Assembly: GCA_965263355.1 (NCBI GenBank)
Contig: CBDHHL010000032.1
Location: 2,272,001-2,336,000, forward strand
Direction: 5' to 3'
DNA length: 64,000 nt
From: Leptolyngbyaceae cyanobacterium
GTDB taxonomy: Bacteria > Cyanobacteriota > Cyanobacteriia > Phormidesmidales > Phormidesmidaceae
The notes under the pieces were generated by a model that saw only the letters and a list, made by a program, of their open reading frames with translations, had not been told where the DNA came from and did not search any database. Positions 1 to 56,988 of this stretch are shown here, in pieces (the first letter of the stretch is position 1; the number at the start of each line of letters is the position of its first letter). Position numbers and translations under genes: made by a program.

Positions 1-1092
1 TCGGGGTTAGAGCTGGCTTTAAAGGCCTTACAAATTACCCGCACTCTCCATGCTGGGGCTGCTCCTTCTCTTGGTCAAGCTGATACAGCGCTACGAGTAA
101 CATTAAATTTTGCCTTGTCTCGTCAGTTATATGGTCAATCTCTATGGGAGATGCCAAATGTGACCGATACTTTGGCAAATGCCTTTTTAGATATTTTGAT
201 GTGTGAGTGTCTCTCAATTACCGCTGTCAGATCCTTACACACGAGTCCTGATCAAATGAGTCTACTTTCTGCTGTTGTTAAATATTTTGTTCCAGATCGG
301 GTAGAATTACTGATTAATAATTTATCGGCTGTATTAGGCGCACGTTACTATTTGAGGGAAGAACACTGTTGGGGTATTTTCCAAAAAATTGTCAGAGACC
401 ATGCCATCGTCAGTGTATTTGATGGTAGTGCAGCCGTTAACTTGAATAGTATTGTTTTACAATTGCATCAATTGGCTAGTTGTCGAGCAACTATTCGAGA
501 AGATATTGATAACACAATTCATTCCTATCTTGATGCTACATATAATTTAACTAACACTCTGCCACACTTTAAGCCTCAACAACTAGAACTATACAATCGA
601 GGTTTTGATTATACGCTTCAGGGAGTTAACATTGCACTGGATCACCTATTGACATTGAAATCAACTGAGGATTTAGAGGCCAGTGTCCTGAATAACATTA
701 TTACACTTACCCAAAAACTGATAAACAAAATTCAGCAGCAGGATGCTCTAATCCTTGACTTAGGTGGACAATACATTGCTAAGTTAGGTAAATCTTCTGA
801 TTTATTTGAGTTAGCAAAATATTACTGTATTTTTCATGTGGCAGTAACCTGTGTATTGATCTGGGTATATAACCGACAGAACTTAGGTGGTTTTTTCGCT
901 CGGGGAGAATGGTTAGTTCTCTGTCTTAAACGACTGCTCAAAGATATCCGTTGTGAGAATATCTATCATGAGAAAGTCTTTGATCCTGATATTGATACTG
1001 AGAAAGCCTATTTTAGGAAGATTTGTGAGGAAGTACTGCGACTCCACAGGAATGGGCAACTGTTTTCTATCATCTCTTTGCAGTTAGGATAA
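1..1092 (+). CDS. Acyl-CoA/acyl-ACP dehydrogenase family protein (5'-truncated by window)
   Basis: Frame is open from base 1 (SGLELALKALQITRTLHAG...ADTALRVTLNFALSRQLYGQ). ACAD C-terminal features are present (R-x-L-Y-G; FQKIVRDHAIVSVFDGSAAVN). It sits upstream of desaturases and an ACP. Confidence 0.75.
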   Translation, partial: SGLELALKALQITRTLHAGAAPSLGQADTALRVTLNFALSRQLYGQSLWEMPNVTDTLANAFLDILMCECLSITAVRSLHTSPDQMSLLSAVVKYFVPDRVELLINNLSAVLGARYYLREEHCWGIFQKIVRDHAIVSVFDGSAAVNLNSIVLQLHQLASCRATIREDIDNTIHSYLDATYNLTNTLPHFKPQQLELYNRGFDYTLQGVNIALDHLLTLKSTEDLEASVLNNIITLTQKLINKIQQQDALILDLGGQYIAKLGKSSDLFELAKYYCIFHVAVTCVLIWVYNRQNLGGFFARGEWLVLCLKRLLKDIRCENIYHEKVFDPDIDTEKAYFRKICEEVLRLHRNGQLFSIISLQLG

Positions 1093-1161: not shown

Positions 1162-2127
1162 GTGGATAATCAGTTAGCTAATATTAAACGTGACTTTAAG
1201 AAGCCATTATCTAATATTCCTCATATCACTAGACTTAGGGTCTCTCAGCTCAGGCAAGAACGAAAAATTTTTGCAATGTCAATATTGCTGCCCTGTGTTG
1301 GTTTTTTAGGTATGCTGGCACTAGCTGTCTACTCAGGTATCTACTATCTTGATCTTGCTCTATTAGGAAGTTTTTTCCTGCTTACAGTCATTGGGATTGA
1401 AGTTGGTTATCATCGACTATTTTCCCATCATGCTTTTGAAACTACATCAGCCATTCAATTTCTGTTAGGCGTTGCTGGTAGCATGGCGTTACAGGGACCT
1501 GTTGTTTACTGGGCCAGTAATCATCGTCGTCATCATACCTGTAGCGATCAGTCTGACGATCCTCACTCACCCCAAGGACATGGTTCAGGTTGGCAAGGGT
1601 TGTTTCAGGGATTATGGCATGCTCATATTGGCTGGATATTTTCACCTGAGAGAACCTGTCCGGGGCACTATGGGCGAGACCTATTAGCTGATCCTATAAT
1701 TCAACAGATTGATCGTGGCTACCTCCTCTGGGTAAGCATAGGTCTGTTGTTACCTGCTCTTATTGGTGCCTGGGTCAATGGAGGGATGGGGAGTTTGCAT
1801 GGTTTTTTATGGGGAGGATTGGGACGTATCTTTCTTGTTCAACAGGGTACTTACAGCATTAATTCTTGCTGTCATAGCTTTGGGTCGCGTTTATTTAAGA
1901 CTGATGACCAGAGCACTAATAATCTCTGGTTGGCATTACCTACCTTGGGTGGTTCATTGCATAATACTCACCATGCTTTTCCTAATACAGCCACCAATAG
2001 AGTTCGATGGTGGCATCTTGATGTGAGTGGGTGGTTGATTCAAGCTTTGGCAAAGGTGGGTCTGGTTTGGAATATGAAAGTACCGTCATCACAGATGATT
2101 GAATCTAAGCTAATTAACCCTGGGTAG
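1162..2127 (+). CDS. Membrane fatty-acyl desaturase (delta9/JamB-like)
   Basis: Three His boxes HRLFSH, HRRHH, HNTHH; DPHSP and WHAHIGW motifs; hydrophobic segments. Confidence 0.9.
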   Translation: MDNQLANIKRDFKKPLSNIPHITRLRVSQLRQERKIFAMSILLPCVGFLGMLALAVYSGIYYLDLALLGSFFLLTVIGIEVGYHRLFSHHAFETTSAIQFLLGVAGSMALQGPVVYWASNHRRHHTCSDQSDDPHSPQGHGSGWQGLFQGLWHAHIGWIFSPERTCPGHYGRDLLADPIIQQIDRGYLLWVSIGLLLPALIGAWVNGGMGSLHGFLWGGLGRIFLVQQGTYSINSCCHSFGSRLFKTDDQSTNNLWLALPTLGGSLHNTHHAFPNTATNRVRWWHLDVSGWLIQALAKVGLVWNMKVPSSQMIESKLINPG

Positions 2128-2167
2128 AATAAAAGGTTTTTGTTGTTCTACCCACTCATGTCGACTC

Positions 2168-3160
2168 ATGGTGAGTAGCGGTCACCATCCAAAGCCTTTA
2201 AAGGCTAGCGTATATATGTCGAAAACGTTGAATCATCCTCAAATCACAATCGTTAACGATTATTTGCAAGCAATACAGCAACGTCATGCTTTTGCAATTA
2301 CACTTTTGCCTCTGTTGGGTGTAGTACTTGCCGTTGTTCAGGTGTGGAACTATGGTATTAGTGCTGTCGATATTGCTGTCTTGCTGATTATGTACGGACT
2401 GACAGTAATTGGAGTAGAAGTAGGTCTACATCGGTATTTTTCTCACAAGTCTTTTGATACTCATCCACCGATACGTTGGGTGTTGGGTGTGCTGGGCTCA
2501 ATGGCCGCTCAAGGTCCATTGATTTATTGGGCGGCTAATCATCGCCGCCATCATCAATTTAGCGATCGCACCGGTGATCCCCACTCCCCTTATGAATACG
2601 GAGTACCTACTCAACAACGGTTAAAGGGACTTTGGCATGCTCATACAGGCTGGATGTTTCATCATACAACACCTAATCCAGCATTCTTTACTAAAGAGAT
2701 GTGTCAAGATACTTTAATTAATCAGATTGATCGTCTGTACTTAGGATGGGTTGCCTTAGGCTTGGGACTTCCTTCTGTTATCGTTGGATTGTTTACGCAA
2801 AGTTGGGCGGGGCTTTGGCTTGGATTTTTATGGGGTGGGTTAGTACGAATTTTTATTGTCAACCAAGGTGCCACTTTCTTTGTGAATTCTGTTTGTCATA
2901 CCTGGGGAAAACGACCATTTAATACCCAAGACTCAAGTACCAATAATATTTGGTTGGTCTTGGTTACCTTTGGGGGGGCCTGGCACAATAATCATCATGC
3001 CTTTCCAAATGCTGCGATGAATGATTTGGAATGGTGGCAGTTGGATTTGAGTGGTTGTCTTATTCGTGTACTCAAATGGATTGGTTGGGCCTGGAATGTT
3101 AAACAACCAACGAAGGCCATGATAGAAGCTAGAAAACATCAAAGTCTGGCATCTCCATAA
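2168..3160 (+). CDS. Second membrane fatty-acyl desaturase (delta9/JamB-like); start may be ATG 2216
   Basis: His boxes HRYFSH, HRRHH, HNNHH; clear paralogue of the upstream gene. Confidence 0.9.
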   Translation: MVSSGHHPKPLKASVYMSKTLNHPQITIVNDYLQAIQQRHAFAITLLPLLGVVLAVVQVWNYGISAVDIAVLLIMYGLTVIGVEVGLHRYFSHKSFDTHPPIRWVLGVLGSMAAQGPLIYWAANHRRHHQFSDRTGDPHSPYEYGVPTQQRLKGLWHAHTGWMFHHTTPNPAFFTKEMCQDTLINQIDRLYLGWVALGLGLPSVIVGLFTQSWAGLWLGFLWGGLVRIFIVNQGATFFVNSVCHTWGKRPFNTQDSSTNNIWLVLVTFGGAWHNNHHAFPNAAMNDLEWWQLDLSGCLIRVLKWIGWAWNVKQPTKAMIEARKHQSLASP

Positions 3161-3232: not shown

Positions 3233-3679
3233 ATGAGTATTTTAAATCAAATTTTGACCCGACAAGAGAGACTACAACCTGAAGCTCCTGTTGTTAAGTC
3301 AATAACATCCGAGGAAATTAAATTGTGGCTAATTTCTCAGCTTGCAGAGAGGTTGGAAGTTCCTTCTGAGTCAATTGATCCCCATAAAGATTTTGTGGAA
3401 TACGGCCTTAATTCGATTGAAGCTGTCAATCTTTCTGGAGGGTTAGAAAACTATCTAGGCTGTCGCCTCTCGCCTACATTGATTTGGGATTGTCCGAATA
3501 TTGAAACCCTGGTGCGGTATTTAGCAGAAGAGAATATCGCAGGAGATATTACATCTTTAACACAAAATGACCTTCAACTACGTGAAGTACAAAAACTACT
3601 GGCTAATATGGATCAACTATCTGATGAGTCTGTAGATATGTTATTAAATGTTATGTTGCCTGAGCAAGATGATCGATGA
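3233..3679 (+). CDS. Acyl carrier protein with C-terminal helical extension
   Basis: Phosphopantetheine site YGLNSIEAV (GLDS variant), LSPTLIWDCPNIETL typical of PKS-type ACPs; acidic tail LSDESVDMLL. Confidence 0.88.
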   Translation: MSILNQILTRQERLQPEAPVVKSITSEEIKLWLISQLAERLEVPSESIDPHKDFVEYGLNSIEAVNLSGGLENYLGCRLSPTLIWDCPNIETLVRYLAEENIAGDITSLTQNDLQLREVQKLLANMDQLSDESVDMLLNVMLPEQDDR

Positions 3680-3731: not shown

Positions 3732-5066
3732 ATGATGAGCATTCAACCACACATCAATAAGGTGAATCTCTCATCTCAGGAAAAACGTGCTCTACTGACA
3801 AAGTTATTGATGGAAAAAGCGCTTTTACCACCACTGTCGGTAGCCTCCTCAGATATTCCTTCTGAGTATTACTGTTTTGATCACTATTCAGGCTATCAGC
3901 AATTACAACAGCAACGCATCCAACTGCAAGCCTTAGGGTTAGAGAATCCTTATTTTGCAGTTCATGATCAGGTCGCTCAGAACACTACCCAGATAAATGG
4001 TAAAACATTTATAAATTACTCTACCTATAATTATTTGGGACTCTCAGGGCACCCTGCTGTTTCTAAAGCTGCTAAAGCTGCAATTGATCGTTATGGTACA
4101 TCGGTGTCAGCTAGCCGAATCGCCTCAGGTGAGAAAAAACTCCATCGAGAACTGGAGCAGGTCCTGGCAAAATTTCTAAATACGGAAGACTGTATTGTTT
4201 TTATTGGTGGCCATGCTACCAATGTATCCACCATTAGTCATCTGTTTGGGCGCAATGATTTGATCTTGCATGATGAGCTGAGTCATAACAGTATTTTGCA
4301 AGGGATTTTATTGTCGGGTGCCAGTGCGATCTCATTTCCCCACAATAACTGGCAGGCGCTAGATCGTCTTTTACAAGATCACCGTCATGCCTATCAACGG
4401 GTACTGATAGTCATTGAAGGCGTGTATAGCACTGATGGTGATATTCCAGATCTACCTCGATTTATCGAGGTTAAAAAACGCCATAAAACCTTTTTAATGG
4501 TGGATGAAGCCCATTCTATTGGTGTGTTAGGTAGCCAGGGAAGCGGTATTGGTGAATATTTTTCCGTAGATCGCACTGATGTAGATTTGTGGATGGGGAC
4601 CCTTAGCAAAAGTTTGGCCAGCTGTGGCGGATATATTGCTGGCAGTCAAGTGCTGGTAGACTATCTTAAATATACCGCCCCTGGTTTTGTCTATAGTGTC
4701 GGCATCTCGCCCGCCAATGCGGCGGCAGCCCTGGCAGCACTGCAACAGCTTCAATCTGAACCGGACCGTATTAGTCGTTTACATCAACGGGCCAACTTAT
4801 TTTTGAAGTTAGCCCAAAAGGCAGGCCTAAACACAGGCCTCAGTCATCATTCTGCTGTTGTACCCATTATTCTGGGTGATTCTCTACGATGTCTCCAACT
4901 AGCTCAATCATTATTCCAACAAGGAATTAACGTACAGCCATTGAGCGCACCCACGGTACCTGAAAAAACGTCTCGTTTGCGGTTCTTCATTAGCTGTCTA
5001 CATACAGAAGAGCAGATTCACTTTACTGTTGAAACCCTTATCCAGGCAGTGACAGATTTGCCATGA
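3732..5066 (+). CDS. Alpha-oxoamine synthase family PLP enzyme (SPT/BioF/RkpG-WcbT-like)
   Basis: YNYLGL, HNS, EGVYSTDGD, VDEAHS, GTLSKS (PLP Lys), RLRFF motifs. Confidence 0.9.
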   Translation: MMSIQPHINKVNLSSQEKRALLTKLLMEKALLPPLSVASSDIPSEYYCFDHYSGYQQLQQQRIQLQALGLENPYFAVHDQVAQNTTQINGKTFINYSTYNYLGLSGHPAVSKAAKAAIDRYGTSVSASRIASGEKKLHRELEQVLAKFLNTEDCIVFIGGHATNVSTISHLFGRNDLILHDELSHNSILQGILLSGASAISFPHNNWQALDRLLQDHRHAYQRVLIVIEGVYSTDGDIPDLPRFIEVKKRHKTFLMVDEAHSIGVLGSQGSGIGEYFSVDRTDVDLWMGTLSKSLASCGGYIAGSQVLVDYLKYTAPGFVYSVGISPANAAAALAALQQLQSEPDRISRLHQRANLFLKLAQKAGLNTGLSHHSAVVPIILGDSLRCLQLAQSLFQQGINVQPLSAPTVPEKTSRLRFFISCLHTEEQIHFTVETLIQAVTDLP

Positions 5067-7337: not shown

Positions 7338-7892
7338 CTATTGCTTTAAACCAAGTTGCTTTCGTAGCCAGGTTGCTCCCATAAATAAAAGAGGAGCAAC
7401 AATACAGCCCGTTAAAACTAAATGCTTAGGAAAAGCGAAAAAAAAGTACCATAGAATTAGAACTCCAAATGTTGAGTCCATATGATCGATGACGTAAAAG
7501 AGGCGATTACTTTCATCTCCTGGTGGTATTTGTAAGCGACGTTTAATAAACGAATTGGGAAGCTCAGCCAAATTAAAAATAAATCCAACGAATAGTCCAT
7601 AGACTATAGCGTTAAAATCTGACAACAACACAAAATTTGTTTTTTCTTGGAATAGATAGATTTCGGGTAGCTGTATAAGCCAGGTGCTGACAACCATTGT
7701 TATCGGTAAGCTGACTAAACCTCGCCAACGTTTGTTAGCACCAAACCAGGTCTGGTGGATAGGCTGATTCAAAGATTCAAAATAGGGTGTTTTCCAGAGA
7801 AAGGCTTCCAATACACCGGCAAGGAATAGACCACAACCTAACCACATTAGATTAAAAGTATCTCTTAAGATTATTAAAAAAATATTTTCCAT
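7338..7892 (-). CDS. CarS (CDP-archaeol synthase)-like membrane cytidylyltransferase
   Basis: FGANKRWRG, AELPNSFIKRRLQIPPG, IDHMDS signature of the CarS/CTP_transf family; several TM helices. Confidence 0.8.
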   Translation of the reverse strand: MENIFLIILRDTFNLMWLGCGLFLAGVLEAFLWKTPYFESLNQPIHQTWFGANKRWRGLVSLPITMVVSTWLIQLPEIYLFQEKTNFVLLSDFNAIVYGLFVGFIFNLAELPNSFIKRRLQIPPGDESNRLFYVIDHMDSTFGVLILWYFFFAFPKHLVLTGCIVAPLLFMGATWLRKQLGLKQ

Positions 7893-7913
7893 CTTGATAA
7901 TTCTAATAGTGCG

Positions 7914-9245
7914 ATGATCTTATTTGAGAATAAACTGGGCCAGCTTATATCCCAGGGTGCTGCCTATGATTGCGATGGTTGGGGACAGCTGACGACAGAT
8001 ACCCTAAGCTGGTCTGTTAATGGAAAACACTATGCCCTTGCTCTGGCCGATACTGTCGGTGTGTCAGCTTGTGATTCCACAGAAAAACAGGGAGGTTTGT
8101 GTTTTGAAGTGTATGCTTATCCGCTAGTGTCTACTAAGCGATGGTTCCAAACCATCGCTTGCTCCAAACGGGTATTGCGAACCTATAAATTTGTTTGTCC
8201 AAAAGCTGAGGTGCGATCGCAATGGCTGCAATCCCTTCAATATGTTCTGAACCAGAGGCCGATCCAGGAAAACTCAAAACCACGTCACCTGCACATTATA
8301 CTCAACCCCACTAGTGGTAAAAGACAGGCCCAGAAGATCTATCAGCTGATTAAACCAATCTTTGAAAACAGCAATATTCAGATTACCCTAACCCAGACCA
8401 CCTCCATCAACCATGGCTTTGAACTCGCTAGAACTCTACCCCTAAATGAGTTAGATGGTTTGGTGGTTATTGGTGGAGACGGTACTTTATACGAAGTCAT
8501 TAATGGCCTTATGGAGCGGCCCGATTGGCAAACGGCTATTCAAACTCCCATTGGCATTATGCCAGCCGGTACTGGAAACGGTTTATGTAAAACCCTTTTA
8601 GAGCAGGCAGGTGAACCCTATGATCCCATTAGTGCCGCGTTTCTAATTGCCAAAGGCAAAACCTATCCCATAGACCTTATTGCTATTGAGCACTGTGGGA
8701 AACGTTATCACAGTTTTCTCTCCTTAGAATGGGCCATAGCCAGTGATGTAGACATCGGGTCAAATTATCTGCGATTTCTGGGTTCCCTCAGACACATGCT
8801 CTATGCCCTGTTTTGTATCCTACGTTTCCGAGTATATAAGGGGCGTTTTTCCTTCTTGCCTGCCCACCCACCCCACCTTCAGTTACACAGCCATGGGAGT
8901 AGCCCTTGGCAAACTATTGAAGATGACTTCATTTTCTTCTGGGCCATGAACATAAAATGGGCTGCCCACGATATGCAAATAGCTCCCCACGCGCAGTTAG
9001 ATAATGGTACTATAGACGTCATTCTGATTCGTAAGGGCATCTCTCGATTGCAGTTATTAATCGCGTTTCTAAAAACTGCTACGGGAGAATACATAAACAT
9101 GGAGAAAATAGAATACTACAGGGTAACGAGTTTCTTGCTAGAACCCCTAACATCAACAGGAATTTTGGCCGTAGATGGAGAGCAGATTGACTACAGCCCA
9201 CTCCAAGCTAATGTTAAGAAAGGCCTAGCCTGCATCATGGGTTAA
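7914..9245 (+). CDS. Eukaryote-type sphingosine/ceramide kinase (DAGK_cat) with PH-like N-terminal domain
   Basis: LNPTSGK, GGDGTLYEVINGLMERPDWQTAIQ, PAGTGNGL, SDVDIGS, VDGE; closely resembles SPHK1/plant SPHK motifs as I recall them. Confidence 0.85.
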   Translation: MILFENKLGQLISQGAAYDCDGWGQLTTDTLSWSVNGKHYALALADTVGVSACDSTEKQGGLCFEVYAYPLVSTKRWFQTIACSKRVLRTYKFVCPKAEVRSQWLQSLQYVLNQRPIQENSKPRHLHIILNPTSGKRQAQKIYQLIKPIFENSNIQITLTQTTSINHGFELARTLPLNELDGLVVIGGDGTLYEVINGLMERPDWQTAIQTPIGIMPAGTGNGLCKTLLEQAGEPYDPISAAFLIAKGKTYPIDLIAIEHCGKRYHSFLSLEWAIASDVDIGSNYLRFLGSLRHMLYALFCILRFRVYKGRFSFLPAHPPHLQLHSHGSSPWQTIEDDFIFFWAMNIKWAAHDMQIAPHAQLDNGTIDVILIRKGISRLQLLIAFLKTATGEYINMEKIEYYRVTSFLLEPLTSTGILAVDGEQIDYSPLQANVKKGLACIMG

Positions 9246-9251
9246 GGATTG

Positions 9252-9896
9252 CTAGGCATTATCTACCTGGGCAATAGCTTTAATTGATTCCAAAAGCTGC
9301 AATACATTTGTAGATTGTTTTATTACATAAAGAGGCAAACAGACCAGTATAGTTATTTGAACAAAACTCAAGCTACCCCCCATCCAACTCAACAAAGGTG
9401 TCTTGACATAATATGAAGAGTACAGAAGCAAATAAAGCAGTTCATTACCGATAATCAGTGCGTCCATAAATGGCTTGTTGCCATAATAAAGAGTGAGCAG
9501 TCTATTCTTCGACCAGGTAGTAGCTTCTTTATGGTTGATATACCCCCCAATTGCTGTTGCATATAGCAAATAGTAATGACTGCCGATATCCAATGCAATT
9601 AACAGAATAAAAATAGAGGTGTATTCAGGATAGAGTTCTGACAAAATAAGACATAGACCTGCTGTGGAACAGCGATCTGTCACCATATCTAGCGCTGCTC
9701 CAAAGTGAGAGCTTTGCTTAAACTGTCTAGCGGCCCGGCCATCAAACTCATCGAGTAGAAAAGCCAATGAATATAGACCAACAAAGATTTCCCAATGGCC
9801 ACCCCAGGTATGGCCAATGAATGCACCTGCGTAAAGGAACACTCGCAGATAGCCAATAAGATTGGGAATATAAAGGAAGACTCGATTATTCGTCAT
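9252..9896 (-). CDS. Eukaryote-type CDP-diacylglycerol--inositol 3-phosphatidyltransferase (PIS/CDIPT-like)
   Basis: Starts MTNNRVFLYIPNLIGYLR. CDP-alcohol motif DEFDGRAARQFKQSSHFGAALDMVTDRCST, plus PIS-specific LDIGSH, NHK, LYY, GNEL. The ORF track starts at TTG 9953; ATG 9896 fits better. Confidence 0.85.
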   Translation of the reverse strand: MTNNRVFLYIPNLIGYLRVFLYAGAFIGHTWGGHWEIFVGLYSLAFLLDEFDGRAARQFKQSSHFGAALDMVTDRCSTAGLCLILSELYPEYTSIFILLIALDIGSHYYLLYATAIGGYINHKEATTWSKNRLLTLYYGNKPFMDALIIGNELLYLLLYSSYYVKTPLLSWMGGSLSFVQITILVCLPLYVIKQSTNVLQLLESIKAIAQVDNA

Positions 9897-43458: not shown

Positions 43459-43608
43459 GGGGCCATTTCGGTAGCATCACGGCTTTCTGTGAATACTAAA
43501 CCTGTCCATGTCCAGAACGGTCATTTTTCCGTAGAAGACCTACAGGTCTCAACTTGGACATAGTTTAGGTTGTGGTGTGAAATATCCTATCTACCGGAGA
43601 CGTTACCT

Positions 43609-46600
43609 ATGGTACAGAGCAAACATTGTGCCCTTCTCATCATTGGCAGCTTGTTCATTGGTGTGGAAGATGTCTGTGCCCAGTCAATCGTTCCCAATGG
43701 AGCTAACACCTCAGTCACCAATGTCAATGGTGACCATCAGGTTACTGGAGGAACTGCATCCAACGGTGGCCAGAATCTATTTCATAGTTTTGAGCAATTT
43801 GGCCTCACGTCTAACGAATCTGCCACCTTTGTCACCCAGCCTAATGTGGTCAATGTATTGGGGCAGATCAATGGAGGTAGCCCTTCGATTATCAATGGTC
43901 AGTTAGGGATTACTGGCAGTACGGCCAACTTATTTTTATTGAACCCAGCGGGAGTGGTGTTTGGGCCAGATGCCACCCTGGCATTGCCCAGAAATCTAAG
44001 TGTTTCAACGGCTGATGGGGTGGCCTTTGGAGACAATATTTTAGAGGTCATGGGCACCTCTGACTATGGCAGTCTAGTTGGCAATCCCACTGGGCTAGTC
44101 TTTCGATTTAGTACCCCTGGGTCGATCATTAATGCCGCGAACCTTAACCTCGGTGTGAATAACTCCCTGATGTTAGCAGGGGAAACCGTTGTATCAACGG
44201 GCAATATATCGGCTGGAGAGGTTGCGATCGCAGCTGTCCCCGGTGAACAACTCATCCGGCTTAACCCAGATGGAGCGATCCTCGGCTATGACATCGCCCC
44301 CAGTGGCGACAACGGTTTGTTATCTCCCCTGAGCCTTCCAGAACTCTTGACTGGTGCTGGTGATATTGCCAACAGTTTACAGCTAGACACTGATGGCACC
44401 GTACGGCTAGTTAATCATGGGTTAGCTATTCCAGACACACCGGGCACAACCATCGTAAATGGTGATATCACTGCCAGTGAGATTACCCTATTAGGAGACA
44501 TTGTCGGTGTTGTCGATAGTCTGCTAGCAGCTAGCGGTCCCGATGGCGGTGGTGCTATCTCCATTGGTGGCAGCTATCAGGGACAGGGACCTTTGCCCAA
44601 TGCCAAGATTACCTATATCAGTGCTGATTCGGTATTAAATGCCAGTGCTACCGTTAATGGGGATGGTGGCGAGATTATTGTCTGGAGCGATCAGACTACC
44701 CATGCCCTGGGTCAATTTTTAGCCCTAGGAGGACCCAGTGGCGGTAACGGTGGTTTAATCGAAACCAGTGGCCGACAAGGATTAACATTGGGCACCACTG
44801 CTCCCGATGTGTCGGCACCAGCAGGATTAGCTGGCCTATGGTTAATTGACCCATTTAATGTGGTGATTGGTGAATTTGAAACCTCTACCGAATTTTCTGA
44901 AGGAGATGTCTTTAGTCCAATTGCGTCTCCAGCTGAGTTAGATGTCGACCTTATTGTCAATGCCCTGAAAGATGGCAATGTTACGATAACGACAGGAACT
45001 GAGGGGCAAGAAGAGGGAACTATCACCCTCATCAGTGACCTGCTCTATGAGAATTTAGCAGGTCAAACAAACACATTAACGTTAGAAGCGGCAGGAAGTA
45101 TTTTTATCAATGCCAGTATCGAGCCTCTGTCGTTTAGTAATCCTATCAATATCAACCTTTTAGCCGACTCTGACAACACAGGTAATGGTCAGGTTGTTAT
45201 CGGTAATGGAGGAAATACTGATTTTTTCAGCGATATCGACACAGCTGGTGGGAATCTTACAGTAGAAGCAGATAGTACAACCTTAACTGGTATAACAGAC
45301 CCATCAGCCATCATTCTTGATAATTTTACAACGATCTCGACGTTTGATCGGTTTGGCGACGGAGAGACAGGTGGAACTGTTTTTCTAGAAGGGATTGCCA
45401 GCAGTGGTAAGGGGATTCAGCTGAGAACTGAATCTGCTCTTAGAGCTGCAAGCGATGTCACATTAATCGGTGATTCTAATGGCGATGTCGGCGTCTCCAT
45501 TGAGGGTGAACTTGAGATTAGTAATGGCTCTTTACTGGTAACGGGTAACAGCACAAACAACCCAGTCGGTATTTTTACATCAACTGATCTGCAGACTAAT
45601 ATTAACAACAATAGTCAAATTATTCTCACCAGTGACAGTGATATTCAAGTTGAGGGTTTGCGTGCCGGTGGCGATATTACAGTGACAACGCCAGCCTTCT
45701 TTAGGGCATCAGGCATCATTTTTAATGGAGAAATAGACGGGGAGATACCAGGAGAAATAGACGGAGAGATACCAGGAGAAATAGACGGGGAGATACCAGG
45801 AGAAATAGACGGAGAGATACCAGGAGAAATAGACGGAGAGATACCAGGAGAAATAGAAATAAGACCGCTTGGCAGCATTATTAGTGAGACTGGCCAGGTC
45901 ATTATTACCCACGGTGGTAATGGCCTAACTACGTTTGATGTAGGCAACGACTTGGTCAACGGTACGGCAGCTGCAATTGTTGCCACATCGGACGAGATAC
46001 AACCCCCTGCTTCCTTTACAGAAAGTTTCATAGCAATCAATGAAACTATTTCTATTTTGACTGGGGAAGTTGACCCAACAGTCCCGGTAGTCCCGGTAGT
46101 CCCGGTAGTCCCGACAGTCCCGGTAGTCCCGACAGTCCCGACAGTCCCGACAGTCCCGGCAGGTCCAGAAGAAGAACTTCCAGAAGTGGGCTGTATTGTG
46201 GACTGCCAAGAGATTCCTGTCAATCCTGATACAACGTCTATTGCAATTGACGATGCGATTATTGATATCGACTCAAATCGATTGCTCGGCGATGAGAGAG
46301 CTATTCGCCAGATTGACAATAGCTATACAAATAGTTATCAAAGCTATCTCAATTTAGGTAATGATGAATCACCGACCTTTAACATACCTCAGGTACAGAC
46401 CGATCTAGCCTTGGTAACTGAAAAAACTGGCATTCGTCCAGCCATTGTCTATGTTTCATTTGTCCCCAACAGGGACAAATCGGTTACCAATAGACAACTA
46501 TCTAAACAACAGATCGAAATAGGACAAGAAATTCAACCAACGGATGTTTTGGAATTGGTGGTGGTTACCCCTGAGGGTAAACCAATCCTCAAAACCCTAC

Positions 46601-47574
46601 CGATACAACAGGAGCAAGTATTAAAAACAGCGGCTCGGTTTCGCGCTAATGTCACTAATCTGGGACGAGTGCAGACGCAAACCTATCTCAGTGCTGCTCA
46701 GACATTACATGATTGGCTGATTGCTCCCCTAGAAGCAGAACTAGAACAGCGAGGGATTGGTAACCTGGCCTTTGTGATGCCCCCTGGATTGCGATCGCTC
46801 CCCGTATCTGCCCTCCATAACGGCGAGCAATTTCTGATTGAGCGCTACAGTGTCGGTCTAATGCCCAGCGTCAGTTTAACGGATCTGAGCTATGTAGATA
46901 TACGTGACTCTGAGGTATTGGCCATGGGGGCATCTGACTTTGCTGATCAACCCAAGTTGCCAGCGGTCCCCCTTGAACTCAGCACCATTGCCAATAAACT
47001 ATGGTCTGGTGATTTCGTTATCAATGAAACCTTTACCCCCGATTCCCTGGTGGCCAGTCGGACATTAAAACCCTATGGTATTGTCCATTTGGCTACCCAT
47101 AGTGAATTTAGGGCAGGTAGTCTTGATAACTCCTACATTCAGTTTTGGGATCAACGTCTGAGCCTTGACCAGGTTCGTTCCTTGGAGCTTAACAATCCCC
47201 CGGTTGAGCTTATGGTTCTCAGTGCCTGTCGTACCGCCCTAGGCAATGAGGAAGCTGAGTTAGGCTTTGCCGGTTTTGCTGTCCAGGCGGGTGTTAAAAC
47301 TGCCATTGCCAGCCTATGGAAAGTAGACGATGTCGGCACAGCGGGCTTAATGACCCAGTTTTATACGAGTTTACAAACCGAGCCCATCAAGGCCGAAGCC
47401 CTGCGTCAGGCACAGTTAGCCATGATCAATGGCGATATTCGAGTCGAGAATGGCCAATTGCGCTGGTCCGGAGGCACACTACCGCTGCCCGATAATTTAG
47501 CCTGGGTTGACAGTAGCCTATTTTCCCATCCCTATTTCTGGGCCTCCTTTACCTCCATTGGCAGTCCTTGGTGA
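43609..47574 (+). CDS. Filamentous haemagglutinin N-terminal (TPS) domain + CHAT (caspase-like) domain protein
   Basis: Signal peptide then NLFHSFEQF, NLFLLNPAGVVFG, GGNGGLIETSG; C-terminal VHLATHS, VLSACRTA, SLWKVDD, HPYFWASF. Confidence 0.9.
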   Translation: MVQSKHCALLIIGSLFIGVEDVCAQSIVPNGANTSVTNVNGDHQVTGGTASNGGQNLFHSFEQFGLTSNESATFVTQPNVVNVLGQINGGSPSIINGQLGITGSTANLFLLNPAGVVFGPDATLALPRNLSVSTADGVAFGDNILEVMGTSDYGSLVGNPTGLVFRFSTPGSIINAANLNLGVNNSLMLAGETVVSTGNISAGEVAIAAVPGEQLIRLNPDGAILGYDIAPSGDNGLLSPLSLPELLTGAGDIANSLQLDTDGTVRLVNHGLAIPDTPGTTIVNGDITASEITLLGDIVGVVDSLLAASGPDGGGAISIGGSYQGQGPLPNAKITYISADSVLNASATVNGDGGEIIVWSDQTTHALGQFLALGGPSGGNGGLIETSGRQGLTLGTTAPDVSAPAGLAGLWLIDPFNVVIGEFETSTEFSEGDVFSPIASPAELDVDLIVNALKDGNVTITTGTEGQEEGTITLISDLLYENLAGQTNTLTLEAAGSIFINASIEPLSFSNPININLLADSDNTGNGQVVIGNGGNTDFFSDIDTAGGNLTVEADSTTLTGITDPSAIILDNFTTISTFDRFGDGETGGTVFLEGIASSGKGIQLRTESALRAASDVTLIGDSNGDVGVSIEGELEISNGSLLVTGNSTNNPVGIFTSTDLQTNINNNSQIILTSDSDIQVEGLRAGGDITVTTPAFFRASGIIFNGEIDGEIPGEIDGEIPGEIDGEIPGEIDGEIPGEIDGEIPGEIEIRPLGSIISETGQVIITHGGNGLTTFDVGNDLVNGTAAAIVATSDEIQPPASFTESFIAINETISILTGEVDPTVPVVPVVPVVPTVPVVPTVPTVPTVPAGPEEELPEVGCIVDCQEIPVNPDTTSIAIDDAIIDIDSNRLLGDERAIRQIDNSYTNSYQSYLNLGNDESPTFNIPQVQTDLALVTEKTGIRPAIVYVSFVPNRDKSVTNRQLSKQQIEIGQEIQPTDVLELVVVTPEGKPILKTLPIQQEQVLKTAARFRANVTNLGRVQTQTYLSAAQTLHDWLIAPLEAELEQRGIGNLAFVMPPGLRSLPVSALHNGEQFLIERYSVGLMPSVSLTDLSYVDIRDSEVLAMGASDFADQPKLPAVPLELSTIANKLWSGDFVINETFTPDSLVASRTLKPYGIVHLATHSEFRAGSLDNSYIQFWDQRLSLDQVRSLELNNPPVELMVLSACRTALGNEEAELGFAGFAVQAGVKTAIASLWKVDDVGTAGLMTQFYTSLQTEPIKAEALRQAQLAMINGDIRVENGQLRWSGGTLPLPDNLAWVDSSLFSHPYFWASFTSIGSPW
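45727..45856 (+). repeat. 24-bp coding tandem repeat (GEIDGEIP x5 plus partial)
   Basis: ggagaaatagacgg(g/a)gagatacca repeated five times in frame. Confidence 0.9.
46075..46157 (+). repeat. 9-bp coding tandem repeat (PVV/PTV x9)
   Basis: ccggtagtc/ccgacagtc units in frame. Confidence 0.88.
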
Positions 47575-50170: not shown

Positions 50171-51043
50171 TCACGCGCGGGCAATACTGGCAACCCGTCC
50201 TCCAGTTTTGTTGATACGCTGCAGAGTTTGGGATAGAGTTTCGTAAGGTACTACAAACACTCGATTGCTGCGGCGAATACTGGGATAGCCTGGGGTACTC
50301 ATACCAGCAACTTCAATTCGATATAGAGTGCCACGTTCCTGAGTTGTGTGAGGTCGTCCAAAGACACGCGTTTGAGGAGTATTTTTCGTGGAGGCTAAAT
50401 ATGTACTGACGCCACTACCAGTTCCTGAAGGGGTATTAATTACAGATGTAGTCCCCAGGGCCAATTCTGTTGCTAAGCGGGATTTATTACCCGCAAGCTG
50501 TGATCGATCGCTATTGGCATAGCCCCGATAAAGGCTAAACATTCTAGTAAACCCTGAGATACTTTGCCCTACCTCAGTATTAAAACTGCGATAGTAGGGA
50601 ACAATGTTATCTCCAAAGGCTTGTTCATACTCCTGTGTATCGATGTAGGAATCGATATCAGCATCAAATCCTTCAGTTTCGTAACGATCTAAATGCTCAA
50701 TGATCTCTGCTTCGCTATAGGGTGCCCGCCCTAACAGATGCTTGAAATTTAGTTCAATAACACGAGTTTGAAAGTTAGGATACAAAAACTTAGTCTTGTA
50801 TAGCTCAGATTTAGCCACAGCTCTAACAAACTCTCGAACGGTTAATGTCCCATTGACAAGTAGAGATTCCAAACCGACTAACCGTTCAGATTCCATTAAG
50901 TAGTCATTGCCTAAAACATGCCGATAAACGGCCTGAATGACTGCTTTTATAGTGTCTGACGAGGCATTGGGACGAAACTCTAGGGGGCCTTGCTCACTAA
51001 ACGGTGTAGTGCCTAACCAAGCAGCCGATTGGGTAATAGCCAC
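50171..51043 (-). CDS. cpcC: Phycocyanin rod linker (CpcC/CpcI-type)
   Basis: [41 protein letters not shown], CpcD-like C-terminus. Confidence 0.9.
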
Positions 51044-51133
51044 AGATCAATCTCCTTCAAAGTACTTAACTCGGTAATCTTGATTACCTGGATTCAGATG
51101 TCTGTATGAGGTAATACTCCAAAAGTGAGAATA

Positions 51134-51952
51134 TTACGCAGATGTAATATTGATAATACGACTACCCCTTTGATTAAGTCGTTGCAATGTGGATGATAGT
51201 TGCTCGTAGGAAACTAGATACTCTTGAACACCTAGTCGAATCTGCGGGGTACGTCCACTAGCAGATTGAGAAACGCGAATGCGATAGAGCTTTTCCCGTT
51301 TGCCCCTGGTGACACCCTGTAGCTCCTTACCAAAACCGGACGCTCTAACAGGTGTGGCTGTATTAGTTGCTAATTCTGTTGTCAAACATCCTTTTTTGTT
51401 CTGGGTCCGGGCTCGATCGCTGCTAGCATATCCTCGATATAGCTGAAACATTCTGACAAAGCCTACTGTCTTCTGATTTCTCTGAGTAGCAAACCCTCGA
51501 TAATATGGAACAATTTGGTTACCAAAGGTATCGCGATATTCATCAGAATCAAAATAGCTGCTAATTTCAGCTTCGTATCCCTTCTGAATATAAAGATCTA
51601 CATGCTCAGAAATTTCTGTCTGGTCATAGGGCGCCCGACCCAGAAAATGCTTGAAATTTAGCTCGATAAAACGAACTTGGGGATTGTTACTAAAGAACTT
51701 ATGCTTGTAGAGAGTTGACATAGCCAGGGCGCGCACAAAGTCACGAACATGAATATGTCCCTGCTTTAGCAAAGATTCAGCACTGGTCAGACGTTCTGAA
51801 CGCATTATGTGATCATTGCCAAACAACTGGCGATAGGCAGCCTCAATAATGGTTTTAATATCTGTTTCAGTCGCATTCTCCCGAAGCTCAGAGGGGGTTA
51901 CTTGAGCAAATGGTTCAAATCCTAATGAACTGGCTGATGCTTCACTTATCAT
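51134..51952 (-). CDS. cpcC: Phycocyanin rod linker (CpcH/CpcC2-type)
   Basis: [34 protein letters not shown] 51952 preferred because 52012 lies inside the cpcA 3' hairpin. Confidence 0.88.
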   Translation of the reverse strand: MISEASASSLGFEPFAQVTPSELRENATETDIKTIIEAAYRQLFGNDHIMRSERLTSAESLLKQGHIHVRDFVRALAMSTLYKHKFFSNNPQVRFIELNFKHFLGRAPYDQTEISEHVDLYIQKGYEAEISSYFDSDEYRDTFGNQIVPYYRGFATQRNQKTVGFVRMFQLYRGYASSDRARTQNKKGCLTTELATNTATPVRASGFGKELQGVTRGKREKLYRIRVSQSASGRTPQIRLGVQEYLVSYEQLSSTLQRLNQRGSRIINITSA

Positions 51953-51996
51953 AATGGTTTTCCAGAACTGTCGTTTATGAACAATGCTTTTCTTGC

Positions 51997-52034
51997 ATCC
52001 ATTGCCTGACATGTTCGTTAGTCAGGCAATGGAT
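51997..52034 (-). terminator. Stem-loop downstream of cpcA (terminator/mRNA stability element)
   Basis: Perfect 14-bp arms ATCCATTGCCTGAC / GTCAGGCAATGGAT, 12 bp after the cpcA stop. Confidence 0.7.
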
Positions 52035-52046
52035 AGGCCTTAACCG

Positions 52047-52535
52047 TTAACTAAGCGCGTTAATGGCATAGTCAATGTAGGAATTTGCCTCAACGGCTGC
52101 ATCTCCACTTAGACCATGGTTGGCTTTGATATGGCTGAGCGCTTCAACATACCAACTGGGAGATAGTTCGAACGCTTTGTTAATTTCTGCAGCTCCAGCA
52201 ACCAGATAATCGTCCATTGGGCCTGTACCACCTGCCACTAGACAATAGGTAACCATCCGCAGATAATAGCCAATGTCACGAGAGCACTTAGCTTTACCTT
52301 CAGGTGTGGAAGCATAGTTGTTGCCCTGCATTTGGGTAGTGTAGGGGAACTTTTGGTATACAGCCTGAGCCGCACCGTTAACTAAGCTTTCTGCATTTTT
52401 TGTAAGGGTTTGAGCAGCAGATAGGCCTGCCTGGGCCTGACGAAAACGGCCAAAAGCAACTTGCATTTCAACGCTGCTTAGAAAGCGACCCTGGGAATCA
52501 GCTGTTGCGACAGCTTCTGTCATGGGTGTTTTCAT
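52047..52535 (-). CDS. cpcA: Phycocyanin alpha subunit (cpc2-like operon)
   Basis: [31 protein letters not shown] (Cys84), [18 protein letters not shown] upstream of ATG 52535. Confidence 0.96.
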
Positions 52536-52601
52536 GATGCTAAATCTCTCCAAAAAAAATATCTACAAAATTGACAAACGAGTTATTAACGTTGCGCAGA
52601 G

Positions 52602-53120
52602 TTAACCAACAGCACTTGCTGCCCGATCAAAGTAGCTGCTAAGTTCAGCCATCAAGGAGCTGCAATCACCTTGAGTAATACCTGCTCTGTCATTTGCGAT
52701 CGCAATTGCCGCTTCTTTCATCTTATTCACACCTTCTGCCACTGAAGCACCGGGTACGCCTAAGGCTAGATAAGTTTCACGTAAACCATTCAAACACCGA
52801 TCATCTAATACGCTGGCATCACCCGTAAATATTGCATAGGTAACATAGCGCAGAATGATTTCCATATCCCGTAAACAAGCAGCCATACGACGATGGGTAT
52901 ATGCATTACCCCCTGGTGCAATTAGTTGGGGCTGCTCCTTGAACAGTACCCGTGCTGCATTGGTAACAATGGCACTGGCGTTACCTGTTAGCCGGTTAAC
53001 CACATCCATGCGCTTACTTCCCTCTGCAACGAGTTGACTCAGCGCTTGGATTTGGGAATCGCCAATGTATTCACCTCGTGCATCGGCTTGGGCAATAACC
53101 TTTGTAAAAGCATCGAACAT
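52602..53120 (-). CDS. cpcB: Phycocyanin beta subunit (cpc2-like operon)
   Basis: [29 protein letters not shown] (Cys82), GDCS (Cys153). Confidence 0.96.
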
Positions 53121-53468
53121 GGAAAAATCTCCTACTCAAAACAAGCATATACAAGTATTAAAGAAGCTGTTGGAAAAAGCTTCAAATTTCACCAACAAGA
53201 TGTTCTAAACAAAACATATCTCAAACGAGTGAAACTAATTTCCTTCTATTTGAGAGAGGAGAGCAACGCCCTAACAAGAAAAAATTGAAGAACATCTTAA
53301 TGGAGAAAAGCATCAAAATACATCTCCCTCAAAGCTTATAAACTTTATCGGAAATAAATCCTTGTTGTACAAGGTTTTAGAAACTGTTGGAAGGCAGCCT
53401 AAATACTTGCTAAAAGGCATGGAGTTAGTGACGCTCCTAATCTTACTTGCCGATTAAGTCTAATGCGC

Positions 53469-53494
53469 TGTTAGCAAATGTTACTTTGCTAACA
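53469..53494. promoter_or_regulatory. Palindrome in cpcB upstream region
   Basis: TGTTAGCAAA-tgttac-TTTGCTAACA, 10-bp perfect arms. Confidence 0.4.
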
Positions 53495-53568
53495 ACCTTT
53501 GAGGGAAGAGAGCCCTGACCTCAATCAAGGCTCTGACTTTTGAACCAAGTTGATTTAATCAATTTGAT

Positions 53569-53586
53569 TGTGCAAGCACTGTGCAT
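53569..53586 (-). promoter_or_regulatory. L-box (RcaC site) upstream of cpcB
   Basis: Minus strand ATGCACA-gtgc-TTGCACA; matches TTGCACA-N4-TTGCACA with one mismatch. Confidence 0.8.
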
Positions 53587-53668
53587 GGCTTTGTATCTGA
53601 ATGCTTACAATTCTCTAAATGCCTGTGAAATATACCTTAGAGAGACTGGTAGCAGGATTTGCACAAGC

Positions 53669-54487: not shown

Positions 54488-54614
54488 TGGTTGCCGCCCT
54501 TTGTTCGATCACCTCCCAAATATGGTGCATTGTTTAACTGGTTGATCACATTTGGAAGTTGAAAAACCTGTGGGTTGAGTATTGCAAAGGTATACCCTTA
54601 CCATGCCGTACCAC

Positions 54615-54632
54615 TGTGCAAACTCTGTGCAC
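54615..54632 (-). promoter_or_regulatory. L-box (RcaC site) upstream of pcyA
   Basis: Minus strand GTGCACA-gagt-TTGCACA. Confidence 0.8.
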
Positions 54633-54670
54633 ATTTAAGGCTGTATTGACAAATATCTGGTGTGTAGGGG

Positions 54671-56587: not shown

Positions 56588-56595
56588 TGTTTAAT

Positions 56596-56988
56596 CTAGA
56601 GTCTCCATCCTATTAGCTTGGCTATTTGACTGGCTAAGGATAAGGGGTCAAAGGGTTTAGTAATGACCCCAGTCACCCCAATCTTTTGAAACAGACGTTT
56701 TTCTGCTGTTCCAGTTTTAGCCGTCAACAAAATAACTGGAATATTTTTAGTCTGAAGATTACTATGTAAACTCTCAAAAGTACTAATACCATCTACCTCA
56801 GGCATCATGACATCAAGTAAGATGGCATCTGGTTGGCGTGTTTCAGCCAGATGCAGCCCTTCTTGCCCTGAAGATGCACAAATGATTTGCCAGTTAGCTT
56901 CCATCTTTAAACTGAGCCTAACCACCTTCTGAATAGGCTCCTCATCGTCAATCACCAGTATCAGTTTGGATGTCATGGTGTTTTGCAT
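56596..56988 (-). CDS. rcaF: Single-domain response regulator
   Basis: ILVIDDE, ILLDVMMP, LTAK, TKPFDP; overlaps the rcaE stop. Confidence 0.85.
   Translation of the reverse strand: MQNTMTSKLILVIDDEEPIQKVVRLSLKMEANWQIICASSGQEGLHLAETRQPDAILLDVMMPEVDGISTFESLHSNLQTKNIPVILLTAKTGTAEKRLFQKIGVTGVITKPFDPLSLASQIAKLIGWRL

What the first reader, a model, noticed from the sequence alone, without database searches (positions are those of the whole stretch)
7914..9245. Eukaryote-type sphingosine/ceramide kinase with PH-like domain
EVINGLMERPDWQTAIQ is almost the same as the mammalian SPHK1 segment as I recall it (EVVNGLMERPDWETAIQ). The SDVDIGSNYLRFLG and YKGRFSFLP segments also follow the SPHK pattern. 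The roughly 120-aa N-terminus ending FVCPKAEVRSQWLQSLQ resembles the PH domain of CERK. Ordinary bacterial DgkB/YegS proteins are about 300 aa and lack these features. This may be a eukaryote-to-cyanobacterium transfer or a bacterial sister clade. The Asp-Leu-Glu-Ser-Glu segment is altered (DIGSN), so specificity may differ.
Basis: partly seen in the sequence, partly recalled or inferred. Interest (0 to 1): 0.8.

Follow-up and report, generated by a model that had tools for sequence, protein, structure and literature searches.

The report
Cyanobacterial sphingosine kinase, inositol-lipid module
A cyanobacterium carries a real sphingosine-kinase-like enzyme of the kind found in animals and plants, and the genes that travel with it suggest that it helps build an inositol-containing sphingolipid by a route not yet shown in any organism, though no enzyme has been tested.

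Summary
The 443-aa ORF is real. Its kinase domain is sphingosine-kinase type (human SPHK1 165 bits, AGK 71, DgkB 46), keeps the Asp81/Ser168/Asp178 equivalents, and residues 1-116 fold as a PH domain (Z 13.9) homologous to eukaryotic SPHK N-termini. It is not CERK-like (no CxxxCxxC). It belongs to a rare cyanobacterial clade (5 of 401 genomes) that is sister to, not nested in, the sampled eukaryote-type SPHKs; the direction of transfer is unresolved. The stronger result is context: a CarS-like CTP-transferase occurs in exactly the same 5 of 401 genomes; all 9 kinase genomes examined have an inositol-type CDP-alcohol phosphotransferase and a TSC10-like reductase, 8 an inositol-phosphate synthase (0 of 56 controls) and 8 an SPT-like synthase. 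Best reading: long-chain base -> base-1-phosphate -> CDP-lipid -> inositol-phosphosphingolipid (about 60%); all chemistry is inferred and no N-acyltransferase was found. Cyanobacterial homologues were mentioned in passing in print, and this scan noted the three-gene module before in another genome (e1-3076504).

The parts
7914..9245 (+). PH-domain sphingosine-kinase-type lipid kinase, 443 aa (P0001)
   Evidence: (DAGK_cat, YegS_C)
7914..8261 (+). N-terminal PH-fold domain (residues 1-116)
   Evidence: Z 13.9, rmsd 2.5 A over 96 residues to TAPP1 PH; many further PH rows Z 11-13; hhalign 99.1%, E 1.6e-18 to N-termini of eukaryote-type SPHKs
8277..9242 (+). Kinase domain: NPxSG ATP loop, GGDG (Asp189 = SPHK1 Asp81), Ser270, Asp280 (= Asp178), Asn284 (= Glu182, changed), Arg287, Arg293, Asp421/Glu423
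   Evidence: alignment, column counts
7338..7892 (-). CarS-like (CDP-archaeol synthase family) membrane CTP-transferase, 184 aa, head-to-head with the kinase 21 bp away
   Evidence: PF01864, 40 bits, cut-off 22; same 5 of 401 genomes as the kinase; also head-to-head in L001 and L083/L124
9252..9896 (-). Eukaryote-type phosphatidylinositol-synthase-like CDP-alcohol phosphotransferase (214 aa from the ATG at 9896; ORF open to 9953), tail-to-tail with the kinase
   Evidence: (PF01066), intact DxxDGxxAR...GxxxDxxxD motif, Atlas score 0.96 to eukaryotic PIS clusters, P0292, 3 of 401 genomes, all kinase-positive
3732..5066 (+). PLP-dependent alpha-oxoamine synthase, SPT-like
   Evidence: best PDB match Sphingobacterium SPT E 1e-68, KBL 2e-64, BioF <=3e-62; below all NCBIfam cut-offs; 57-69% identical copy in 8 of 9 kinase genomes
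3233..3679 (+). Dedicated acyl carrier protein
   Evidence: PP-binding
1162..3160 (+). Two membrane fatty-acid desaturases (1162-2127, 2168-3160)
   Evidence: FA_desaturase; not tested for co-occurrence
1..1092 (+). 3' part of an acyl-CoA/ACP dehydrogenase gene cut by the window edge
   Evidence: Acyl-CoA_dh_1; 53% identical to the dehydrogenase in the FAAL-ACAD-ACP-AOS-KDSR cluster of L123

Best explanation
The protein is the kinase step of a biosynthetic head-group module that sits on top of a cyanobacterial long-chain-base pathway. Proposed order: a fatty acyl-AMP ligase loads a fatty acid on a dedicated ACP (optionally modified by the dehydrogenase and desaturases); the SPT-like synthase condenses it with serine; a TSC10/KDSR-like reductase gives a sphingoid base; this kinase phosphorylates the C1 hydroxyl with ATP; the CarS-like enzyme converts the lipid phosphate to a CDP-lipid; the phosphotransferase replaces CMP by myo-inositol (PIS type) or inositol-phosphate (archaeal/PIPS type), supplied by the co-occurring inositol-3-phosphate synthase; GT4 enzymes may glycosylate the product. 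The PH domain probably tethers the soluble kinase to anionic membrane. Shown here: homologies, fold, residues, gene co-occurrence and clustering. Inferred: every substrate and product, the order of steps, whether and when the amine is acylated, and the role of the PH domain.
For: Kinase is SPHK1-type with the amino-alcohol-binding Asp kept (role of Asp178/Asp81 from passages of PMC8560647). In one 401-genome phylum sample: kinase 5, CarS-like the same 5, PIS-like 3, all among the 5, KDSR-like 21 including all 5. Over 9 kinase genomes: CarS-like 9 of 9; KDSR-like 9 of 9; window-type AOS 8 of 9; inositol-3-phosphate synthase 8 of 9 against 0 of 56 kinase-negative genomes; PIS-type transferase in 6 and, in exactly the other 3, a different transferase whose best NCBIfam models are archaetidylinositol-phosphate/PIP synthases (0 of 56 controls). 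Physical clusters: L124 has kinase, CarS-like, GT4, KDSR-like, FAAL-ACP-AOS, FAAL and MIPS within 12 kb; L123 has FAAL, ACAD, ACP, AOS, KDSR-like, CarS-like. Reductase profile's best PDB hit is TSC10 (E 1.6e-42); AOS best PDB hit is an SPT. CarS-family enzymes select non-phosphatidic-acid lipids (PMC9385802 passages). Dedicated ACP + acyl-ACP synthetase + SPT is an established bacterial design (PMC9386255 passages).
Against: No activity or lipid is measured. No N-acyltransferase was identified (TLC-domain search 0 of 9 but its control was silent; bCerS could not be searched). The AOS margin over KBL/BioF is small and it reaches no curated SPT cut-off; its amino-acid substrate is unknown. The KDSR-like, FAAL and MIPS genes are not inside this window and this genome could not be searched, so the full set is assumed for this organism from relatives. 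Several of the 9 genomes share kinase neighbours and are close kin, so co-occurrence counts are not independent and the nominal p-values overstate them. G003 lacks the window-type AOS and G369 lacks MIPS with these queries (incomplete assemblies possible). This copy carries Asn284 where most relatives have Glu/Asp, so it may be slower. The three genes are not co-oriented.
Confidence: 0.6

Rival explanations
1. The module makes a glycerolipid: the kinase phosphorylates DAG or an ether/mono-acyl glycerol, the CarS-like enzyme makes the CDP-glycerolipid and the transferase makes phosphatidylinositol; the AOS/KDSR genes are a separate pathway.
For: The transferase is a typical PI-synthase type; the kinase superfamily includes DAG and acylglycerol kinases; KDSR-like and AOS genes also occur in 16 and 11 of 16 genomes without the module.
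Against: The module never occurs without the KDSR-like gene (9 of 9; background 21 of 401) and is physically clustered with FAAL-ACP-AOS-KDSR in L123, L124, L001 and this window; the lipid-binding motif is SPHK-type and absent from all 64 DgkB-like and 9 planctomycete-type controls by the regular expression used; a dedicated CarS-type enzyme would be superfluous for phosphatidic acid (inference).
Confidence: 0.17
2. Same pathway logic, but the amino alcohol is not a classical sphingoid base or membrane lipid: the cluster makes a single-chain secondary metabolite or glycan anchor (an inositol-phospho amino-alcohol), with the kinase as a tailoring enzyme.
For: FAAL-ACP-AOS, desaturases and PKS-AOS fusions are natural-product-like; no ceramide synthase found; neighbours include sulfotransferases, GT4, Stealth and LicD proteins; patchy distribution near 1%.
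Against: High conservation of all partners (55-73% identity) across several cyanobacterial groups and dispersal of the genes over the chromosome in Pleurocapsa-like genomes fit a housekeeping-like lipid; a C1 kinase needs a serine-derived hydroxyl, which makes the product sphingoid in any case (inference). This rival overlaps the best explanation at the kinase step.
Confidence: 0.15
3. Catabolic or detoxifying role: the kinase phosphorylates sphingoid bases from neighbouring eukaryotes for cleavage by an S1P lyase.
For: That is the role of the closest characterised relatives (established knowledge); many carriers come from biofilm or host-associated metagenomes by their record titles.
Against: PF00282 members occur in only 3 of 9 kinase genomes; two look like histidine decarboxylases and the third matches amino-acid decarboxylases better than S1P lyase (77.7 vs 49.6 bits). 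The constant partners are biosynthetic.
Confidence: 0.05
4. This particular copy is degenerate (Asn for Glu at 284, His at 294) or the gene is eukaryotic contamination.
For: Asn at 284 in 3 of 117 sequences; the two closest relatives keep Glu. A scan note places a Gypsy element in the same assembly (unchecked), so the assembly may be mixed.
Against: Intact frame, all invariant columns kept, no introns, GC 0.45 like its neighbours, on a 3.9-Mb contig among bacterial genes, with orthologues in named cyanobacteria.
Confidence: 0.03

Closest known systems
Eukaryotic sphingosine / long-chain-base kinases (human SPHK1, PDB 3VZB, 4L02)
   Same: Fold (Z 38.8, rmsd 3.2 A over 322 residues), 32-33% identity, catalytic and lipid-binding residues, and an N-terminal domain homologous to that of longer eukaryote-type SPHKs
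   Different: Bacterial clade sister to the eukaryote-type set; Glu182 position is Asn; genomic partners point to lipid synthesis rather than S1P signalling or breakdown
Caulobacter crescentus CpgB/CpgC/CpgA/CpgD phosphosphingolipid pathway (10.1101/2023.05.01.538943; PMC11324152; PMC12275187; passages read)
   Same: Lipid kinase followed by a putative CDP-DAG-synthase-like step; an NDP-activated ceramide was proposed there for CC_1161 but not shown
   Different: CpgB is described as a clade distinct from eukaryotic kinases; here the kinase is SPHK-type with a PH domain, the activator is CarS-family, the head group is inositol, and a eukaryote-type ketoreductase suggests a free long-chain base as substrate. 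Direct sequence comparison with CpgB/CpgC was not possible
Bacteroides inositol sphingolipid cluster BT_1522-1526 (PMC9246714, passages read)
   Same: MIPS plus CDP-alcohol phosphotransferase giving inositol lipids in an SPT-bearing bacterium
   Different: There PI-DHC comes from an AUR1/IPC-synthase-like transfer from PI-DAG; no lipid kinase or CarS-like step. An AUR1-like gene was not searched for here
Archaeal CDP-archaeol route (CarS, archaetidylinositol-phosphate synthase; PMC9385802, passages read)
   Same: CarS-family CTP-transferase and, in 3 of 9 genomes, an AIPS/PIPS-like transferase
   Different: Matches are below NCBIfam cut-offs; the partners make an acyl-derived amino alcohol, not isoprenoid ethers
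Human ceramide kinase CERK
   Same: PH domain plus DAGK-type kinase architecture
   Different: No CxxxCxxC, no PH_CERK or CERK_C Pfam match

Membership tests
Sphingosine kinase (SPHK/LCB4 type) | Best sequence and structure match among solved lipid kinases is SPHK1 | tested here: met
   (family profile: SPHK1 248 bits, AGK 113, DgkB/BmrU <=69)
Sphingosine kinase (SPHK/LCB4 type) | Catalytic Asp of GDG motif, Ser168 and Asp178 equivalents, C-terminal DGE | tested here: met
   Asp189, Ser270, Asp280, Asp421, Glu423; 116-117 of 117 in the family; numbering counted's alignment
Sphingosine kinase (SPHK/LCB4 type) | Glu182 equivalent (metal/phosphate site; role recalled, not found in the searches) | tested here: not met
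   Asn284 in this copy; E 94, D 18, N 3, Q 1, A 1 of 117. Whether this residue defines the family is uncertain; the copy is therefore filed as SPHK-like
Sphingosine kinase (SPHK/LCB4 type) | Groups with eukaryote-type SPHKs apart from DgkB/YegS | tested here: met
   joint branch 100/100; sister, not nested
Sphingosine kinase (SPHK/LCB4 type) | ATP-dependent phosphorylation of a long-chain base | not testable with these tools
   needs an assay
Ceramide kinase (CERK) | CxxxCxxC motif (stated as absolutely conserved) | tested here: not met
   absent from P0001 and from P0001-P0135
Ceramide kinase (CERK) | N-terminal PH domain | tested here: met
   PH fold, but no PH_CERK Pfam hit at E<=0.01
Ceramide kinase (CERK) | Phylogenetic grouping with CERK | not tested
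   no CERK sequence was obtainable from the tools
Bacterial DgkB/YegS/BmrU | NCBIfam cut-off (TIGR00147 118.65 bits) and about 300 aa without extra domain | tested here: not met
   74.4 bits, 443 aa with PH domain; outside that clade
Caulobacter CpgABC system | Orthology to CpgB and CpgC; phosphoglycerate head group | not tested
   no CpgB/CpgC sequence in hand; partners here are CarS-like and inositol-type
Serine palmitoyltransferase (neighbour 3732-5066) | Curated SPT model cut-off / serine specificity | tested here: inconclusive
   best PDB hit is SPT but NCBIfam best is BioF 365.7 (cut-off 426) then SPT 324.7 (cut-off 640)

The most novel reading that the evidence does not exclude
About 1% of cyanobacteria run a complete, undescribed inositol-phosphosphingolipid pathway that goes through a CDP-activated long-chain base (or CDP-ceramide) instead of AUR1-type transfer, assembled from three eukaryote-type enzymes (PH-domain SPHK, PI synthase, TSC10/KDSR) and an archaeal-type CTP-transferase; the kinase clade is a deep sister of all eukaryotic SPHKs, so these bacteria preserve either a very early gene exchange with eukaryotes or the bacterial source of the eukaryotic PH-kinase enzyme. 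The probability given is for the pathway; a bacterial origin of eukaryotic SPHK I put near 0.15.
Probability: 0.5. Interest if true: 0.85.

Novelty: new variant of a known kind. Interest (0 to 1): 0.68.

Why it matters
A 2022 study states that no cyanobacterial sphingolipid enzyme or genetic basis had been characterised although two cyanobacterial sphingolipids were reported (PMC8895605, passages); this locus supplies named candidates for nearly every step and a short list of strains to extract. A CDP-activated sphingoid intermediate has been proposed for Caulobacter but not shown; here it becomes testable with three small genes. A PH domain fused to an SPHK-type kinase in bacteria, in a clade sister to the eukaryotic enzymes, bears on where eukaryotic sphingolipid and inositol-lipid enzymes came from. 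A PH-less member is encoded by Limnospira/Arthrospira, which are easy to grow.

Tried and rejected
Whole-genome analysis of this organism: no genome held. Single-sequence model of the N-domain had pLDDT 37.6 and was not used; the PH call rests on the full model. Pfam and PDB sequence searches did not detect the PH domain in P0001; two relatives had sub-threshold PH hits; the Atlas gave only leads under 0.9. TLC-domain ceramide synthase: 0 of 9 with a silent control, uninformative. S1P-lyase/catabolic reading not supported. PDB sequence searches with the CarS-like and PIS-like proteins found nothing. Promoter scan was at chance level (10 found, 6.8 +/- 3.0 expected). Special kinship to mammalian SPHK1 rejected. 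No AU test was run and no CERK, AGK or LCBK1 sequence could be placed in the tree. Literature searches with no relevant hit: 0 papers; 'CDP-ceramide', 0; 0; listings only seen; the library lacks most subscription papers and bioRxiv supplements were not seen, including the tree behind the remark.

Full report
1. Observation. window:7914-9245(+) encodes an intact 443-aa protein, P0001. The window is cyanobacterial by its phycobiliprotein and linker genes (recognised from the translations). Pfam finds DAGK_cat and YegS_C; no NCBIfam lipid-kinase model reaches its cut-off. Against PDB sequences the best match is human SPHK1 (E 2e-47, 165 bits), then AGK (71) and DgkB (46); a profile of 117 family members gives 248, 113 and 69 bits or less.

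2. Structure. An AlphaFold2 model from the 117-sequence alignment (117 of the 120 listed hits; three partial ones left out) has mean pLDDT 91.8. Foldseek and VIA-align rank SPHK1 first. Residues 1-116 align to the PH domains of TAPP1 (Z 13.9, rmsd 2.5 A, 96 residues), ARAP3 (12.8), DAPP1 (12.6) and many others. The N-terminal profile of 114 family members aligns to that of 102 eukaryote-type kinases at 99.1% probability, E 1.6e-18; 68 of those 102 score 10 bits or more against the family N-domain profile, none of the reversed controls does (the set was chosen with a full-length profile, which favours this result). So PH and kinase share one history. The conserved basic residues are Arg86, Arg101 and a Lys/Arg pair near 82-83; ligand unknown. 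Some members lack the domain (Limnospira/Arthrospira, 322-334 aa), so it is dispensable in some lineages.

3. Active site. Counting's alignment, Asp189, Ser270, Asp280, Asn284, Arg287, Arg293, His294, Asp421 and Glu423 correspond to SPHK1 Asp81, Ser168, Asp178, Glu182, Arg185, Arg191, Phe192, Asp341 and Glu343. Asp81 and Asp178 bind amino-alcohol ligands (PMC8560647, passages). Asp189, Asp280, Asp421 and Glu423 are invariant in 117 of 117; position 284 is E 94, D 18, N 3, Q 1, A 1; positions 282 and 294 vary. A role of Glu182 at the metal site is my recollection and was not found. The CERK motif CxxxCxxC is absent.

4. Distribution and tree. 284 of 8000 scored candidates passed; the named ones among the best 120 are cyanobacteria plus one Thiorhodovibrio. 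In an even sample of the phylum 5 of 401 genomes carry the gene, one being the centre genome. In the all-protein search the bacterial clade is followed by longer proteins; 6 of 20 looked up have a named eukaryote in their cluster (liverwort, mussel, fish, brachiopod, sea anemone, insect), the rest are unnamed or only called sphingosine kinase, so 'eukaryote-type' is inferred for most rows. FastTree on 221 kinase domains and IQ-TREE LG+C20 on 77 of them chosen by hand, 316 columns (bootstrap not fully settled) agree: cyanobacterial clade 99/95, the 40 eukaryote-type rows 99/97, the two together with P0158 100/100 on a long branch, a ~300-aa planctomycete/Marinimicrobia group next, DgkB-like proteins outside. 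The clade is a sister, not a nested graft. The outgroup is distant, no AU test was run and CERK/AGK/LCBK1 are missing, so an ancient transfer from eukaryotes (favoured by patchiness and the PH domain; my estimate 0.6), an unresolved shared source, or the reverse direction all remain open. [quoted passage not shown]

5. Neighbours. The kinase is flanked head-to-head (21 bp) by a CarS-like CTP-transferase and tail-to-tail (6 bp) by a CDP-alcohol phosphotransferase; 3-8 kb upstream lie an acyl dehydrogenase, two desaturases, an ACP and an alpha-oxoamine synthase. The transferase resembles eukaryotic PI synthases (Atlas 0.96; source names) with an intact catalytic motif. The synthase's best solved relative is Sphingobacterium SPT, by a small margin. 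Relatives add a short-chain reductase whose 11-sequence profile matches TSC10 best (E 1.6e-42), fatty acyl-AMP ligases, inositol-3-phosphate synthase and GT4 enzymes: L124 carries kinase, CarS-like, GT4, Stealth, LicD, reductase, FAAL-ACP-AOS, FAAL and MIPS in 12 kb; L123 carries FAAL, dehydrogenase, ACP, AOS, reductase, CarS-like; L127 and L128 carry CarS-like, FAAL, MIPS. Reductase, FAAL and MIPS are not in this window. Equal contig lengths (e.g. 9,079, 9,118 and 11,615 bases) suggest kinase and PIS-like gene are also linked in close relatives (inference).

6. Co-occurrence. Same 401 genomes: CarS-like in exactly the 5 kinase genomes, PIS-like in 3, all kinase-positive, reductase in 21 including all 5. 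Over 9 kinase genomes (these 5 plus G002-G005): CarS-like 9, reductase 9, window-type AOS 8, MIPS 8. MIPS was found in 0 of 16 reductase-only and 0 of 40 double-negative genomes. The 3 genomes without the PIS-type gene (G001, G003, G369) are the 3 that have a second transferase most like archaetidylinositol-phosphate/PIP synthases, in G369 directly behind the kinase; it was found in none of the other 6 and in 0 of 56 controls. The window-type AOS is in 11 of 16 reductase-only and 3 of 24 double-negative genomes. The pattern is nested: a base-making core in about 5%, a kinase-CTP-inositol module in about 1%. Against this: most genomes are incomplete MAGs, and several are close kin, so the nominal p-values are too small.

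7. Mechanism. Best reading (0.6): serine + acyl-ACP -> 3-keto base -> long-chain base -> base-1-phosphate (this protein) -> CDP-lipid -> inositol-phosphosphingolipid. Supporting precedent: SPT with a dedicated ACP and acyl-ACP synthetase (PMC9386255, passages); CarS enzymes discriminate against phosphatidic acid (PMC9385802, passages); an NDP-activated ceramide is proposed, unproven, for Caulobacter (PMC11324152 and PMC12275187, passages). The dehydrogenase could give a trans-2-enoyl-ACP and thus a 4-ene base directly (inference). Open: N-acylation (uninformative), AOS substrate, activity of the Asn284 copy. Rivals: glycerolipid/PI route (0.17), single-chain metabolite or anchor (0.15), catabolism (0.05; S1P lyase not evident), degenerate copy or contamination (0.03).

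8. Known versus new. It works like SPHK at the kinase step and like the Caulobacter cpg and archaeal CDP routes in logic; it is not CERK, not DgkB/YegS, and differs from the Bacteroides AUR1-type route (PMC9246714, passages). PMC8895605 (passages) reports no characterised cyanobacterial sphingolipid enzyme as of 2022 and found that the single Nostoc AOS is BioF-like; the AOS here is a second, ACP-linked type besides the ~40%-identical copy seen in most genomes. Ten searches showed no description of this pathway in the listings; the library lacks most subscription journals.

9. Verdict. Real, SPHK-like, PH-bearing, sister to eukaryotic enzymes, and most likely part of an undescribed cyanobacterial inositol-sphingolipid pathway. 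New variant of a known kind; interest 0.68.

Noticed in passing
window 7892-7914 and 9245-9252: The CarS-like and kinase start codons face away from each other only 21 bp apart (13 bp in L124), so each promoter must lie in the other gene; kinase and PIS-like stop codons are 6 bp apart. Promoter scan at chance level.
   Followed up: partly
P0128, P0269-P0282: Limnospira/Arthrospira encode a PH-less 322-334 aa member of the clade; partner genes were not checked in those genomes.
   Followed up: no
P0097: A Thiorhodovibrio (purple sulfur bacterium by its name) protein falls inside the cyanobacterial clade, suggesting transfer between bacteria.
   Followed up: partly
P0158, P0412: A PH-less 311-313 aa pair of unknown origin branches between the cyanobacterial and eukaryote-type groups with weak support.
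   Followed up: partly
L007-L015: A ~300-aa planctomycete/Marinimicrobia/Woeseiaceae kinase group is the nearest other bacterial group to SPHK-type enzymes and has a DxN/related motif instead of the DxDxE motif; substrate unknown.
   Followed up: partly
L130, L132, L135: Kinase-negative cyanobacteria place the TSC10-like reductase beside PKS-AOS fusions or a second, 34%-identical FAAL-ACP-AOS type with GT4 and fatty-acid hydroxylase genes: candidate long-chain-base or glycosphingolipid pathways without a phosphate head group.
   Followed up: partly
L123:18154-19722 and L127:9994-10521: An MBOAT gene and a GNAT gene lie next to module genes in one genome each; possible N-acyltransferase leads, untested.
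   Followed up: no
window 10114-33519: Long run of glycosyltransferases (GT2, GT10, GT25, GT4), sulfotransferases, acyltransferases and an ABC exporter following the module; relation to the lipid unknown.
   Followed up: no
window 50171-62505: Two sets of phycobiliprotein alpha/beta and linker genes flank a bilin-reductase-like gene and a GAF/PAS histidine kinase with response regulators, a layout reminiscent of chromatic acclimation (recalled, not tested).
   Followed up: no
window 43570-47574: Haemagglutinin-like/CHAT-like protein with tandem 8-residue acidic repeats and a Pro-Val-Thr-rich linker (seen; domain names recalled).
   Followed up: no
other pieces of the same assembly: Scan notes mention a cyanobacterial integron intron and a Gypsy retrotransposon, so the assembly may mix a cyanobacterium with a eukaryote; unchecked.
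   Followed up: no
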